A stretch of DNA of 64,000 nucleotides from an uncultured Pelagibacteraceae bacterium (GCA_902516435.1 CABXYF010000002.1:32828-96827); one strand, 5' to 3'. Numbered from the stretch's first letter, positions 52,095 to 56,360 are shown. Numbers and translations are program-made. The notes: generated by a model from the sequence alone, not told the origin.

Positions 52095-52874
52095 TTAAAC
52101 ATTAGCTGTAGCTAACATTTTCTTGATTTCAGCAATTGCTTTTGCTGGATTTAGCCCCTTGGGGCATGCACTAGTACAATTTAGAATAGTATGACATCTA
52201 TAAAGTTTTAGTTCATCAGCAACTTTTTTTAATCTAGCTTTTCTCTCATCATCTCGACTGTCAACAATCCATCTATAGGCTTGTAAAAGTACAGCTGGAC
52301 CTAAATATTTATCACCATTCCACCAATAACTAGGGCATGAAGTAGAACAACATGCACACATAATACATTCATATGCACCATCTAATTTTGCCCTATCTTC
52401 TTTTGATTGAAAAATTTCAGTTGATTCTTTAGATGAATTATTTTTAAGCCAAGGCTCAATTGACTGATATTGTTTATAAAGACCATCTAAATCACCAATT
52501 AAATCCCGCTTAACTTTTAAATGAGGCAAAGGATAAATATCTATTTCACCATCTATTTCTGTATGCGGTGTTGTACATGCGAGACCATTTTTTCCACCCA
52601 TGTTCATTGCACAAGATCCACAGACTCCATGAGCACATGATCTTCTGTAAGCTAAAGAAGGATCGATTTCATTTTTAATTTTATTTAAGATGTCTAGAAC
52701 TTTTGATGGACAATTATCCATATCAACTTCATATGTATCTATTCTTGGATTTTCTTCTGTAGATGGGTCCCATCTGTAAACATTCACTTTACGAATATTT
52801 TTTGAACCTGTTTGGTCTTTATAATATTTTCCTTTATTTACCGTAGAATTTTTTGGTAAACTAATTTGTGCCAT
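52095..52874 (-). CDS. sdhB: Succinate dehydrogenase iron-sulfur subunit
   Basis: [22 protein letters not shown] and [12 protein letters not shown] motifs. Confidence 0.97.
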
Positions 52875-54649
52875 TAATACACTCTTTCTTGTGGTGGAAA
52901 ATATTGTACCTCATTAGTCAACGTTGACTTATGCACTGGTCTATAAGTAATTTTAGTATTTTTTCCATCACACCAGGCCAAAGTGTGTTGCATAAATTTT
53001 TCATCATCTCTTTTAGGATAGTCTTCTCTTGCGTGCGCACCTCTGCTTTCTTTTCTGTGGTATGCAGAGTCAACTGTTGTTACTGCTTGCCTAATTAGAT
53101 TGTCAAACTCTAAGGTTTCAACTAGATCTGTATTGAAAACTAATGATCTGTCTTTAACTGAAATAGAGTCCATACCATCATAAGTTTTTCTAATTTCATT
53201 AACGCCTTCCTCCAAATTTTTTTCTGTTCTAAATACTGCACATTTTGATTGCATAGTTTTTTGCATTGCAAGTCTTAATTCTGCAGTACTGTTGTCCCCT
53301 TGTGCATTTCTTAATTTGTCAAATCTATCTAAACATTTTTGTGTTTCGGTTTCTGGGATTTCTTCATGCGGTGATCCTGGTTTAACTAATTCAGCAGCTC
53401 TTTTTGCAGCAGCTCTTCCAAAAACTACTAAATCAATTAAAGAATTTGAACCAAGTCTGTTAGCTCCGTGAACTGAAACACATGCAGCCTCACCTATTGC
53501 CATTAATCCTGGAACTGTTTTTTCTGATCCATTAACAGTTAATACTTCAGCTTTATAATTTGTCGGAATACCACCCATATTATAATGTACGGTCGGAACA
53601 ACAGGTATTGGTTCTTTAGTTACATCTACATTAGCGAATAATCTTGCAGCTTCTGTAATACCTGGAAGTCTATTTTCAATAACACTTTTATCCAAATGGC
53701 TCAAATGCAAGTGAACATGATCTTGCTCTTCTCCTACACCTCTGCCTTCATTGATTTCTATGGACATTGATCTACTTACAACATCTCTTGATGCTAAATC
53801 TTTTGCATTTGGAGCATATCTCTCCATAAATCTCTCTCCTTTAGAATTTACCAAGTATCCACCCTCTCCTCTAACTCCTTCAGAAATAAGAGTTCCATGT
53901 CCATAAATACCTGTTGGATGAAACTGAACAAATTCCATATCTTGTAAAGGCAATCCTGCTCTTAATACCATTGCGTTTCCATCACCAGTACAAGTGTGTG
54001 CAGATGTTGCAGAATAATATACCTTTCCATATCCGCCTGTTGCAATTATTACTGTATGAGCTCTAAATCTATGAATAGTTCCATCGTTTAAATTCCAGGC
54101 AATTAATCCTTTACACTCTCCATCTTTCATTAGTAAATCTAAAGCAAAGTATTCTATAAAAAATTCAGTATTATGTTTTAAGGCTTGACCATAAAGAGTG
54201 TGTAATATTGCATGTCCAGTTCTATCTGCAGCAGCGCACGTTCTTTGAACGATTCCATTTCCATAATTTTTAGTCATACCTCCAAAAGGTCGTTGATATA
54301 TTTTTCCCTCATCTGTTCTACTAAACGGGACTCCATATTTTTCTAGCTCTAGAACCGCTTTTGGAGCTTCCTTACATAAATATTCAATGCTATCTTGATC
54401 ACCCAGCCAATCAGCTCCCTTGACTGTATCGTACATATGCCATCTCCAATCATCTTCACCCATATTCCCAAGGGCAGCTGAAATCCCACCTTGGGCAGCT
54501 GAAGTGTGACTTCTAGTTGGAAAAACTTTAGAAATACACGCAGTTTTCAAACCAGCTTCACTTAGCCCCACGGCAGCTCTTAATCCTGATCCTCCAGCAC
54601 CTAGAACTACTACGTCGTATTCATGATCTATAATATTATATGATCCCAT
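52874..54649 (-). CDS. sdhA: Succinate dehydrogenase flavoprotein
   Basis: [10 protein letters not shown] (FAD His), QFHPTG and HGANRLG motifs. Confidence 0.98.
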
Positions 54650-54975
54650 TAGTTTAAATTAAATATAGTAATAATTGTTAAAAATGAAATAGCTATAGCA
54701 GAAATTTGCAGTGCTCTGTTTGCGACATTTTTGATTTTTTCATTGTTAATATAATCCTCAAAAACCTCACTAATACTTAAAGCTGAGAAGAAATAAGCAA
54801 AGATAATAAACAAACTAAATAGAAACTTGTTTAATGAGTCAGAAAAAAAATTTAAAACTTCAAAATAACTTTTGTCATAAATAGAAACAAAATTAACAAT
54901 AAACCAAAGCATTAAAGGTATTAAGGCAATTGATGACAACTTTAAGAATATCCACTTTTTTGTTGCGATGTTCAT
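54649..54975 (-). CDS. sdhD: Succinate dehydrogenase membrane anchor subunit D; the protein contains no His
   Basis: Three TM helices, EDY motif, position between sdhC and sdhA; start ATG 54975. Confidence 0.88.
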
Positions 54976-54976
54976 A

Positions 54977-55360
54977 CTAAATAAAATTTCTACCAATTAA
55001 ATAAATAATTACAGTAAGAACAAGCGATCCAAGTATAACTAGTAAACCTGTCACTTTAGTTGTCTGTAATTCAAAACCATATCCCATATCCATTATGAGA
55101 TGTCTTATCTCACTTAAAGTTTGAAAACTAAAAGACCATACCACTCCCAAAATTATAAATTTACTTATTAAAGAACCTAAAAAGTAATTCAAAAAATCAT
55201 AATTATTTTCACCCAGAATTAACCAACACGACCAAAAACAGATTATTGTAATAGCAATTATGTTTATTATTCCAGTGATACGATGTGAAATAGAAACTAA
55301 AGATGAAATATGCCAACTATAAATCTGTATATGGGGTGATAATGGTTTTTTATTTTCCAT
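54977..55360 (-). CDS. sdhC: Succinate dehydrogenase anchor subunit C (cytochrome b556 family)
   Basis: PLSPHIQIY, SISHRITG and IRHLIMD motifs; start ATG 55360. Confidence 0.93.
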   Translation of the reverse strand: MENKKPLSPHIQIYSWHISSLVSISHRITGIINIIAITIICFWSCWLILGENNYDFLNYFLGSLISKFIILGVVWSFSFQTLSEIRHLIMDMGYGFELQTTKVTGLLVILGSLVLTVIIYLIGRNFI

Positions 55361-56360
55361 AGAAATCATTTTTAATCAAACTTTCAGCAATCTGAATTGC
55401 ATTCAATGCCGCTCCTTTTACGAGATTATCTGATACAATCCATAAATTAATTGTGTTTGCTTGGGTTTCATCCAATCTTATTCTTGAAATAAAAGTTTCA
55501 AATTTATCCTCTGCATCAACAGGTGTTGTATATCCGCCGTCTTGATGCTCATCAACGACTTTACATCCTGGAGAAGTAGATAAAACTTTTTTTATATGAT
55601 CTAAATCACATTTTTTATCAAATTCTATATTTGCACTAATACAATGGGAGACAAGAACAGGTATTCTTACACAAGTTGACGTAACTCTAATTTTTTTATC
55701 TAAAATTTTTTGTATTTCATCGGTAGTTTTTTGTTCCTCTTTTGTATAGCCATTTTCTAAAAAACTATCAATATGAGGGATTGCATTAAATGCAATCTGT
55801 TTAGTAAAATTTTGAGAATTTATTTCTTTATTTTGAAAGTAATCCTTTGTTTGAGATAACAATTCATCCATAGCACTTTTACCTGCTCCAGATACAGATT
55901 GATATGTGGATGCAACCACTCGATTGATATTATATAAATCATGTAAGGGCTTCAAAGCCACTACAACTGGAATCACAGAACAATTAGCATTAGCAATAAT
56001 ATTTTTATTTTTAACATCAGCTAATTTTTTTGAATTAACCTCTGGAACTACTAGTGGTATACTAGGATCTTTTCTAAAATATTTTGAATTATCAATAACT
56101 ATAGTTTTTTCTGCAGCAATATGAGCCCATTTTTCAGCCACTCCACTTCCTGCCGCAAAAAAGGCAATTTTTACTTTAGAAAAATCAAATTTTTCAAGGT
56201 CTTCAACTATATGCTCTTTTCCATTATAGCTAATTTTTTTTCCCTCACTATTTTTGGATGCTAATAAAAAAAGATTTTCTATACCTAATTTTTTTTTCTC
56301 AAGTATTTCTATAATCTTTCTTCCAACATTTCCTGTTGCTCCTACAATTGCTATATTCAT
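55350..56360 (-). CDS. asd: Aspartate-semialdehyde dehydrogenase
   Basis: VGATGNVG, NANCS, YQSVSGAG and DNLVKGAALNA motifs. Confidence 0.96.
   Translation of the reverse strand: MNIAIVGATGNVGRKIIEILEKKKLGIENLFLLASKNSEGKKISYNGKEHIVEDLEKFDFSKVKIAFFAAGSGVAEKWAHIAAEKTIVIDNSKYFRKDPSIPLVVPEVNSKKLADVKNKNIIANANCSVIPVVVALKPLHDLYNINRVVASTYQSVSGAGKSAMDELLSQTKDYFQNKEINSQNFTKQIAFNAIPHIDSFLENGYTKEEQKTTDEIQKILDKKIRVTSTCVRIPVLVSHCISANIEFDKKCDLDHIKKVLSTSPGCKVVDEHQDGGYTTPVDAEDKFETFISRIRLDETQANTINLWIVSDNLVKGAALNAIQIAESLIKNDFYGK

What the first reader, a model, noticed from the sequence alone, without database searches (positions are those of the whole stretch)
54649..55360. Complex II anchors appear to have lost both heme-b ligands: candidate heme-free succinate dehydrogenase
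Seen in sequence: SdhC helix II reads WSFSFQTLSEIRHLIMD, where the family pattern is H-x3-G-I-R-H (E. coli His84...His91). The ligand His is Gln (codon 55121-55123) and the Gly is Glu. SdhD reads [16 protein letters not shown], where the pattern is H-x3-G-x-Q-x4-D-Y (E. coli His71...Asp82-Tyr83). The ligand His is Phe (codon 54787-54789), Gly and Gln are Ser, the N-terminal QR is LK, and SdhD has no histidine at all. Quinone-site residues are retained: SdhC S-x2-H-R, SdhD DY, SdhB CHT. Established: type C complex II holds one heme b between those two His, and heme is not strictly needed for quinone reduction in E. coli mutants. Inference: coordinated loss in both subunits, with bulkier residues filling the pocket, suggests a naturally heme-less type C enzyme, plausibly an iron-sparing adaptation. 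I do not know whether this has been described for SAR11.
Basis: partly seen in the sequence, partly recalled or inferred. Interest (0 to 1): 0.85.

Follow-up and report, generated by a model that had tools for sequence, protein, structure and literature searches.

The report
SAR11 succinate dehydrogenase lacking heme ligands
This Pelagibacter (SAR11) genome, like its whole genus, encodes an otherwise intact succinate dehydrogenase whose two membrane-anchor subunits have replaced both histidines that normally hold the heme, so the ocean's most abundant heterotroph probably runs a heme-free complex II, known until now only from yeast, a few protists and engineered E. coli.

Summary
In the sdhCDAB operon on the minus strand, SdhC has Gln (CAA, 55121-55123) where E. 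coli has the heme ligand His84, and Glu where it has Gly88. SdhD has Phe (TTC, 54787-54789) for His71 and Ser for Gly75, and contains no histidine at all. The quinone-site residues and SdhA/SdhB are intact.

The change is fixed. All 78 sampled genomes of the Pelagibacter clade and about 240 environmental proteins carry it. All 88 other sampled proteobacterial lineages keep both His and both Gly. Both genes are under purifying selection (dN/dS 0.05-0.3), the same as in His-retaining relatives.

Pelagibacterales lost bis-His ligation at least three times independently. Freshwater Fonsibacter-like and other lineages keep it.

The closest precedent is yeast complex II, shown heme-free by cryo-EM in 2026, which also carries a Gly-to-Glu change four residues after the lost ligand.

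I found no paper reporting this for SAR11 or any wild bacterium. This scan had already noted the same feature on other SAR11 genomes.

Absence of heme is inferred, not measured. The iron-sparing motive is untested, and would save only 1 of 10 Fe atoms per complex.

The parts
54977..55369 (-). sdhC, large membrane-anchor subunit (130 aa; a second in-frame ATG at 55360 gives the 127-aa form seen in many homologues)
   Evidence: PF01127 E=5.8e-26; TIGR02970 111.7 bits against a cut-off of 52.3; 1.4e-14 to chicken SdhC 2FBW_C
55121..55123 (-). CAA, Gln83, in the column of the heme axial ligand E. coli SdhC His84
   Evidence: Gln in 71 of 78 clade-B genomes and His in the 7 basal ones
55109..55111 (-). 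GAG, Glu87, in the column of the heme-packing Gly88 of E. coli SdhC
   Evidence: Glu in 78 of 78 clade-B genomes and Gly in 98% of the class sample
54649..54975 (-). sdhD, small membrane-anchor subunit (108 aa from the ATG; no histidine)
   Evidence: PF01127 30.6 bits; TIGR02968 50.1 bits against a cut-off of 41.8; profile hit to 1NEK_D at 8.5e-6, ungapped
54787..54789 (-). TTC, Phe63, in the column of the heme axial ligand E. coli SdhD His71
   Evidence: Clade B has Phe 67, Tyr 10, His 1
54775..54777 (-). AGT, Ser67, in the column of the heme-packing Gly75 of E. coli SdhD
   Evidence: Clade B has Ser 51, Thr 23, Asn 4 and never Gly
52874..54649 (-). sdhA flavoprotein, 591 aa, intact
   Evidence: PF00890 at 9.6e-128 and PF02910 at 4.7e-46
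52095..52874 (-). sdhB iron-sulfur subunit, 259 aa, intact, with the Q-site/propionate His kept
   Evidence: PF13085 and PF13534; 50% identical to E. coli SdhB, with the CHT motif aligned to CHS containing His207

Best explanation
The locus encodes a working four-subunit succinate:ubiquinone oxidoreductase of the type C (SdhCDAB) lineage whose membrane anchor no longer binds heme b. Electrons would run FAD -> [2Fe-2S] -> [4Fe-4S] -> [3Fe-4S] -> ubiquinone at the retained proximal quinone site (SdhC Ser27/Arg31, SdhD Asp82/Tyr83, SdhB His207). The heme lies off that path in type C enzymes, so it is dispensable.

The four-helix bundle that normally clamps the heme would be held together by protein-protein contacts. 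Both axial His are gone (Gln in SdhC, Phe in SdhD). The two glycines that let the porphyrin pack against the helices are replaced (Glu in SdhC, Ser in SdhD). By the pseudo-twofold symmetry of the anchor, the new SdhC Glu should pair with the conserved basic residue SdhD Lys/Arg20, which in heme enzymes binds a propionate. That would mirror the yeast Sdh4 Glu112-Sdh3 Arg97 salt bridge.

Shown: the substitutions, their fixation, purifying selection, their restriction to certain Pelagibacterales lineages, and their repeated origin. Inferred: absence of heme, the Glu-Lys pairing, and retained activity.
For: 1. Register and substitutions were confirmed three ways.
2. Both ligands and both Gly are invariant in 49 other alphaproteobacterial families and in 39 further named proteobacterial genomes.
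3. All 78 genomes of the Pelagibacter-containing clade carry SdhC Glu88 and a non-His/non-Gly SdhD, with one His at position 71 next to Thr75. So do about 240 environmental proteins; SdhD has no His in 102 of 120.
4. dN/dS is 0.05-0.20 for SdhC and 0.13-0.33 for SdhD, the same as in His-retaining relatives, so the genes are functional.
5. There is only one Sdh_cyt pair in the genome, so no second anchor is available.
6. Residues listed as heme contacts in E. coli (PMC3290573) are enriched among ancestral residues lost in this clade: 7 of 13 against 14 of 90, Fisher p=0.004. The changes at those sites are radical, while the others are mostly Ile/Leu/Val or Ser/Thr swaps.
7. Heme is available to the cell. 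Cytochrome b and COX1 are in this genome, and ferrochelatase is in 4 of 4 complete genomes of the genus. The loss is therefore specific to this enzyme.
8. Precedents: a heme-free E. coli variant keeps activity and supports growth on succinate (Tran 2007, as cited in PMC3290573). Yeast complex II is heme-free by cryo-EM and spectroscopy, with His->Tyr and Gly->Glu four residues later (PMC13066397).
9. Independent losses within the order argue that the state is viable and repeatedly reached.
Against: - No heme measurement exists for any SAR11 enzyme.
- No three-dimensional model of the SdhC-SdhD pair with coordinates could be obtained, so cavity filling and the Glu-Lys pair are untested.
- Single-ligand mutants of E. 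coli are reported to retain heme (title of Maklashina 2001, cited in PMC13066397), so ligand loss alone does not prove heme loss. This weighs most on the basal lineages that keep SdhC His and on the sister-family lineage that keeps SdhD His.
- The enrichment test includes the four columns that define the trait. Without them it is 3 of 9 against 14 of 90, which is not significant by itself.
- Propionate-binding residues SdhC Arg31 and His91 and a basic SdhD residue 20 are retained, although these also serve the quinone site.
Confidence: 0.75

Rival explanations
1. Heme b is still bound, through unconventional or single ligation (for example five-coordinate, or via another His, Tyr or Met), so the enzyme is an odd cytochrome rather than heme-free.
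For: E. coli axial-ligand mutants are reported to retain heme (title of ref. 49 in PMC13066397). SdhC keeps His30, Arg31 and His91, and SdhD keeps a basic residue at position 20; these touch the heme edge or propionates in E. coli. Basal members of the clade still have SdhC His84.
Against: In this genome both ligands are gone and SdhD has no His at all. Gln and Phe are not heme ligands. Both packing glycines are replaced by larger residues, one of them charged. SdhD position 71 drifts among Phe, Tyr and His within the clade, which is not how a ligand behaves. The nearby SdhD Tyr is not conserved. Yeast, with milder changes (one His kept), has no heme.
Confidence: 0.12
2. The enzyme is heme-free, but the loss is neutral: heme is dispensable in ubiquinone-type complex II, and AT-biased mutation in a 30% GC genome supplied the changes. 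On this view it is not an iron- or heme-sparing adaptation.
For: The substitutions are single steps, mostly G/C->A/T: GGA->GAA, GGT->AGT, CAT->TAT->TTT, AGA->AAA. Window GC is 30%. The saving is only 1 of 10 Fe per complex (established cofactor content). Heme is dispensable in E. coli.
Against: His-retaining sister lineages (Fonsibacter-like, g2, g4, g7) are equally streamlined, 1.1-1.3 Mb genomes of the same order, and kept all four residues. Three independent losses occurred inside one order against none in 88 other lineages sampled. After the loss the new residues are themselves conserved: Glu 78 of 78, Gln 71 of 71 in the crown.
Confidence: 0.3
3. The anchor genes are decaying or the enzyme is inactive, and succinate oxidation is handled otherwise.
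For: None beyond the missing ligands.
Against: The frames are intact. dN/dS is well below 1 and equal to that of heme-type relatives. Quinone-site residues are conserved. There is no other Sdh_cyt gene in the genome. Thousands of near-identical environmental copies exist. In one seawater RNA library a 415-nt contig spans the sdhA start and sdhD including the Phe codon; this is weak, because RNA libraries can carry DNA.
Confidence: 0.02

Closest known systems
Saccharomyces cerevisiae mitochondrial complex II (Sdh1-4), heme-free by cryo-EM (PMC13066397; PDB 9KPS/9KQ3 appear as Sdh3p hits)
   Same: It has the type C fold and quinone site but no heme. An axial His is replaced. The Gly four residues after the replaced ligand has become Glu, which takes over a heme-propionate contact with a conserved Arg. 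Catalytic subunits are unchanged.
   Different: Yeast keeps one His (Sdh3 His156), H-bonded to Tyr108 of Sdh4. This genome has lost both (Gln and Phe). The Gly->Glu change is in the large subunit (SdhC), not the small one. The enzyme is bacterial, with much shorter subunits and an independent origin. The sister-family SAR11 lineage (SdhC Tyr plus SdhD His) is the closer mirror image of yeast.
E. coli SdhCDAB (type C SQR, PDB 1NEK) and its engineered heme-free variant (Tran et al. 2007, cited in PMC3290573)
   Same: Same operon order, same two PF01127 anchors and the same Q-site residues. SdhB is 50% identical. The engineered variant shows that the heme is not needed for activity or growth on succinate.
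   Different: The wild-type E. coli enzyme binds one bis-His heme b556. The heme-free form is a laboratory mutant reported as less stable, whereas here the state is natural, fixed and accompanied by further pocket changes.
E. coli fumarate reductase FrdABCD (type D: two anchor subunits, no heme)
   Same: Two small hydrophobic anchors without heme, and quinone chemistry at the membrane surface.
   Different: The anchor families differ (PF02300/PF02313). SdhC here scores only 17.9 bits on Fumarate_red_D against a cut-off of 25, and matches Sdh_cyt strongly. It descends from heme-binding type C ancestors.
Divergent heme-less complex II of Tetrahymena thermophila and Perkinsus marinus (as summarised in PMC13066397)
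   Same: No heme in the membrane domain.
   Different: They are highly divergent, multi-subunit eukaryotic complexes inside supercomplexes, and were not compared by sequence here.

Membership tests
Type C succinate:quinone oxidoreductase (SdhCDAB) | Four genes sdhC-sdhD-sdhA-sdhB in one operon | tested here: met
   contiguous on the minus strand, 52095-55369
Type C succinate:quinone oxidoreductase (SdhCDAB) | Two small anchor subunits of the Sdh_cyt family | tested here: met
   PF01127 for both; TIGR02970 and TIGR02968 above their cut-offs; PDB hits 2FBW_C, 1NEK_C, 1NEK_D
Type C succinate:quinone oxidoreductase (SdhCDAB) | One heme b held by one His from each anchor subunit | tested here: not met
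   The ligand columns hold Gln and Phe, and SdhD has no His. Heme content itself is not testable here.
Type C succinate:quinone oxidoreductase (SdhCDAB) | Proximal quinone site: SdhC Ser27/Arg31, SdhD Asp82/Tyr83, SdhB His207 | tested here: met
Heme-free subclass of type C (yeast-like, as proposed in PMC13066397) | Axial His replaced, and the Gly at +4 replaced by Glu that substitutes for a heme propionate | tested here: met
   SdhC has Gln-x3-Glu in the window. A Tyr-x3-Glu form occurs in locus L151 and in environmental proteins P0337 and P0357. The subunit carrying the motif is SdhC rather than the Sdh4 homologue.
Heme-free subclass of type C (yeast-like, as proposed in PMC13066397) | Direct His-Tyr hydrogen bond in place of His-heme-His | tested here: not met
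   The window has Gln and Phe. The His/Tyr pair is found only in the sister-family lineage, g6 and g8.
Heme-free subclass of type C (yeast-like, as proposed in PMC13066397) | Demonstrated absence of heme (spectra or structure) | not testable with these tools
   Needs biochemistry or a structure.
Type D fumarate reductase anchors (FrdC/FrdD) | Membership of PF02300/PF02313 | tested here: not met
   Only a sub-threshold Fumarate_red_D hit, 17.9 bits against a cut-off of 25

The most novel reading that the evidence does not exclude
Heme loss from complex II is a repeated, selected trait of oceanic SAR11. It arose at least three times in Pelagibacterales, each time converging on the same solution as yeast: ligand replaced and Gly->Glu (or another larger residue) four residues on. 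It trims the heme/iron budget of the most abundant heterotroph in the sea, and perhaps also its glycine budget, since the alphaproteobacterial ALA-synthase route uses 8 glycines per heme and Pelagibacter is known to depend on external glycine/serine. The paired heme-type (Fonsibacter-like, g7) and heme-free relatives would then form a natural experiment on what the complex II heme is for.
Probability: 0.35. Interest if true: 0.8.

Novelty: new variant of a known kind. Interest (0 to 1): 0.66.

Why it matters
The function of the heme in type C complex II has been debated for decades. It lies off the electron path, and only laboratory mutants and, since 2026, yeast show that the enzyme can do without it. 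A natural, fixed, heme-ligand-free bacterial enzyme, with close relatives that keep the heme and several independent losses, gives a direct comparative system for testing whether the heme serves stability, ROS control or quinone-pool sensing.

SAR11 is numerically dominant in iron-poor surface oceans. The cofactor content of its respiratory chain therefore feeds into estimates of bacterial iron and heme quotas. It also means automated annotations calling this protein 'cytochrome b556 subunit' are probably wrong for the whole genus.

Tried and rejected
- Complex prediction on SdhC+SdhD (alignments A1, A2) gave no verdict: score 0.31 against a mark of 0.32. No contacts were given, so neither the cavity nor the proposed Glu-Lys pair could be examined.
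- phmmer of SdhD alone against the PDB found nothing. A profile was needed.
- Ferrochelatase was not found in the window's own genome, but that assembly is only 79% complete. It is present in 4 of 4 complete genomes of the genus.
- The primary E. coli papers (PMC2084287, PMC2888824) are not held. What I say about them comes from how PMC3290573 and PMC13066397 cite them.
- RNA-library contigs cover sdhA and sdhB densely but sdhC and sdhD sparsely at >=90% identity. A part without cover is no evidence, and contigs cannot show expression level.
- The search of protein representatives returned many fragments and chimeric ORFs. I used it only to note extra variants, not for counts.
- Alignment-register artefact was considered and rejected (three concordant alignments).
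- A second anchor elsewhere in the genome was considered and rejected.
- The locus from the unpublished genome G182 (L093) was left out of all alignments.

Full report
**What is there.** The region lies in a minus-strand operon:
- sdhC, 54977-55369, 130 aa.
- sdhD, 54649-54975, 108 aa from the ATG. Homologues are 107-109 aa.
- sdhA, 52874-54649.
- sdhB, 52095-52874.

Both anchors match Pfam Sdh_cyt (PF01127), and the NCBIfam equivalogs for the cytochrome b556 subunit and the hydrophobic anchor, above their cut-offs. SdhA and SdhB have all expected domains. SdhB is 50% identical to E. coli SdhB, with the Cys-His-Thr that corresponds to His207. The genome is a 1.0-Mb, 79%-complete assembly and holds only this one pair of Sdh_cyt genes. 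Its genus (code g1) includes Candidatus Pelagibacter sp. HIMB1695: locus L116 has the same coordinates as G115. The window is 30% GC.

**Checking the observation.** I took E. coli K-12 sdhC and sdhD from NC_000913 and aligned them with the window proteins and about 110 relatives.
- SdhC His84 aligns with Gln83 (CAA, 55121-55123) and Gly88 with Glu87.
- SdhD His71 aligns with Phe63 (TTC, 54787-54789), Gly75 with Ser67, and the Gln-Arg at 19-20 with Leu-Lys.
- SdhD contains no histidine.

Two independent alignments give the same register: HMMER against chicken SdhC, and an ungapped profile alignment of SdhD to 1NEK_D residues 13-110. SdhC Ser27, His30, Arg31 and His91 and SdhD Asp82-Tyr83 are kept.

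**Is it real and fixed?** In the 5.8-billion-protein collection the hit lists saturate with close relatives. Among the best 120 for each subunit, every SdhC carries Gln-x3-Glu, every SdhD has Phe (rarely Tyr) at the ligand column, and 102 of 120 SdhD have no His. Pairwise dN/dS within the ligand-less clade is 0.05-0.20 for sdhC and 0.13-0.33 for sdhD. One very close pair has almost no synonymous change and is uninformative. These values match those of the His-retaining Pelagibacterales. The genes are therefore maintained by selection.

**Distribution.** I sampled one genome from each of 49 other alphaproteobacterial families and 39 further named genomes, including Rhizobium, Sneathiella, Rhodoplanes and a few gammaproteobacteria. 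The SdhC ligand is His in all, and the SdhD ligand is His in every one where sdhD was recovered. Gly at +4 is 98% conserved in each subunit. Inside Pelagibacterales (151 genomes searched; 100+ loci read) the states are as follows.
- The Pelagibacter genus and neighbours ('clade B', 78 loci) all have SdhC Glu88 and SdhD Ser/Thr/Asn75. SdhD 71 is Phe in 67, Tyr in 10 and His in 1. SdhC 84 is Gln in 71 and still His in 7 basal lineages, including genus code g5.
- Genus codes g2, g3 (which groups with Candidatus Fonsibacter lacus, L153), g4 and g7 keep all four residues.
- In the second family, g6 (20 of 20) and g8 (5 of 5) have SdhC Tyr84 with Cys/Ser88 but keep SdhD His71 and Gly75. g9 has Asn/Asp in SdhC.
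- The single-cell genome AG-913-N02 (L151), which sits among His-retaining lineages, has SdhC Tyr-x3-Glu and SdhD Asn71.

I built a tree of concatenated SdhC+SdhD with the trait columns masked. It needs at least 3 changes of the bis-His state, and an AU test rejects a single origin (delta lnL 84, p=0.001). Two caveats apply: it is a short gene tree, and the group was defined after seeing the tree. The family and genus codes give at least two losses independently of that tree.

**Do the changes look like heme-pocket remodelling?** PMC3290573 lists these E. coli residues:
- Within 5 A of the heme: SdhC His30, Thr37, Phe38, Val85, Val87; SdhD Val19, Ala23.
- The propionate network: SdhC Arg31, His91; SdhD Arg20, Gln78; SdhB His207.

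Take the columns that are conserved in the His-retaining sister clade. The ancestral residue is lost in clade B at 7 of 13 heme-contact columns (SdhC 84, 88; SdhD 19, 20, 23, 71, 75), against 14 of 90 other columns (Fisher p=0.004). The other 14 changes are mostly Ile/Leu/Val, Ser/Thr or Tyr/Phe swaps. Four of the seven heme-contact columns define the trait; without them the enrichment (3 of 9) is not significant alone. All the key substitutions are single-nucleotide steps, mostly in the AT direction.

**Mechanism.** In type C enzymes the heme lies beyond the quinone site, off the FAD-to-quinone path. A heme-free E. coli variant keeps substantial activity and supports growth on succinate (Tran 2007, as cited in PMC3290573). 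Yeast complex II has now been shown heme-free by cryo-EM and spectroscopy (PMC13066397). In yeast, Sdh4 Tyr108 replaces the His and H-bonds to the retained Sdh3 His156, and Sdh4 Glu112 replaces the Gly four residues later and salt-bridges Sdh3 Arg97 where a heme propionate would sit.

The window enzyme shows the same logic in the other subunit, Gln-x3-Glu in SdhC. PMC3290573 states that SdhD Arg20 and SdhC Arg31 are symmetry mates about the heme. I therefore infer that SdhC Glu87 pairs with SdhD Lys12 (E. coli position 20). I could not model this: the complex job gave no verdict and no contacts.

The cell still uses heme. Cytochrome b and COX1 genes are present, and ferrochelatase is present in complete genomes of the genus. 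The loss is therefore specific to complex II.

**Rivals.**
- Heme retained by odd ligation. Single-ligand E. coli mutants reportedly keep heme, so this remains open for the intermediate forms (His/Phe; Tyr/His). For this genome it is unlikely: both ligands are gone, there is no His in SdhD, both glycines are filled, and position 71 drifts among Phe, Tyr and His.
- Neutral loss under AT bias rather than adaptation. This cannot be excluded. Equally streamlined sister lineages kept the site, the loss recurred three times in this order, and the replacement residues are themselves conserved.
- Gene decay. The selection data exclude this.

The iron-sparing idea is plausible but small (1 of 10 Fe). 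Heme synthesis cost is another candidate, including glycine via the ALA-synthase route in a glycine-dependent organism. That last point is my inference from general knowledge and was not tested.

**Novelty.** Full-text searches found no report of a heme-ligand-free complex II in SAR11 or in any wild bacterium. The library lacks most subscription journals. The kind, a heme-free type C complex II, is known from yeast and protists, so this is a new bacterial variant, with both ligands lost and repeated origins.

This scan had already flagged the same feature on other SAR11 genomes, and a similar one in Brevundimonas. I re-derived the SAR11 result independently and did not test the Brevundimonas note. 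New here, as far as those notes show, are the stepwise series within the clade, the Tyr/His sister-family lineage that mirrors yeast, the third lineage (L151), the AU test, the contact-residue enrichment and the codon paths.

**Transcription.** In four seawater RNA libraries from different studies, contigs at least 90% alike cover sdhA and sdhB. One 415-nt contig spans the sdhA start and sdhD across the Phe codon, and two contigs cover the sdhC 5' end. This is weak evidence only, because RNA libraries can carry DNA and contigs do not measure expression.

Noticed in passing
window 55310-55312 (SdhC His20; E. coli position 21): A new His appears at SdhC position 21, beside the quinone-site Trp, in 70 of the 71 genomes that have Gln at the ligand position. 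It appears in none of the genomes that keep His84, which have Gln, Lys, Thr, Glu or Ile there. This is an apparent His/Gln 'swap' on the same branch or branches. The position is too far from the heme site to be a ligand, and its meaning is unknown.
   Followed up: partly
L051-L057, L194-L209, L212-L213 (second family of Pelagibacterales, genus codes g6 and g8): A separate lineage has SdhC Tyr in place of the ligand His and Cys/Ser in place of Gly, but strictly keeps SdhD His71 and Gly75 (25 of 25 genomes). This is the mirror image of the heme-free yeast His/Tyr pair. Whether it binds heme is open.
   Followed up: partly
L151:1501-2190 (single-cell genome AG-913-N02): A third, isolated lineage among His-retaining relatives has SdhC Tyr-x3-Glu and SdhD Asn at the ligand column with Gly kept. 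It sits on a long branch in the tree.
   Followed up: partly
L038 (G069) and L062 (G111): Single genomes of the genus have further changes at otherwise invariant SdhC residues: His30->Thr in L038 and His91->Gln in L062. In E. coli both residues touch the heme edge or a propionate. Their loss fits a relaxed heme pocket.
   Followed up: no
G069:C1:586642-586881: There is a second, weak SdhC-like stretch with four stop codons in one complete genome of the genus (last row). It is possibly a gene remnant.
   Followed up: no
window 55350-55369 and 54975-54996: The asd gene (aspartate-semialdehyde dehydrogenase, 55350-56360) ends 20 bases inside the longest sdhC frame. Many homologues start sdhC at the second ATG (55360, 127 aa). 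The mechanical sdhD ORF starts at a TTG inside sdhC, but the ATG at 54975, which follows the sdhC stop codon after one intervening base, fits the homologues' length.
   Followed up: partly
P0289, P0320, P0337, P0357 (environmental representatives): Other combinations exist in metagenomes: Gln with Gly kept, Tyr-x3-Asn, and Tyr-x3-Glu. Their organisms are unknown.
   Followed up: no
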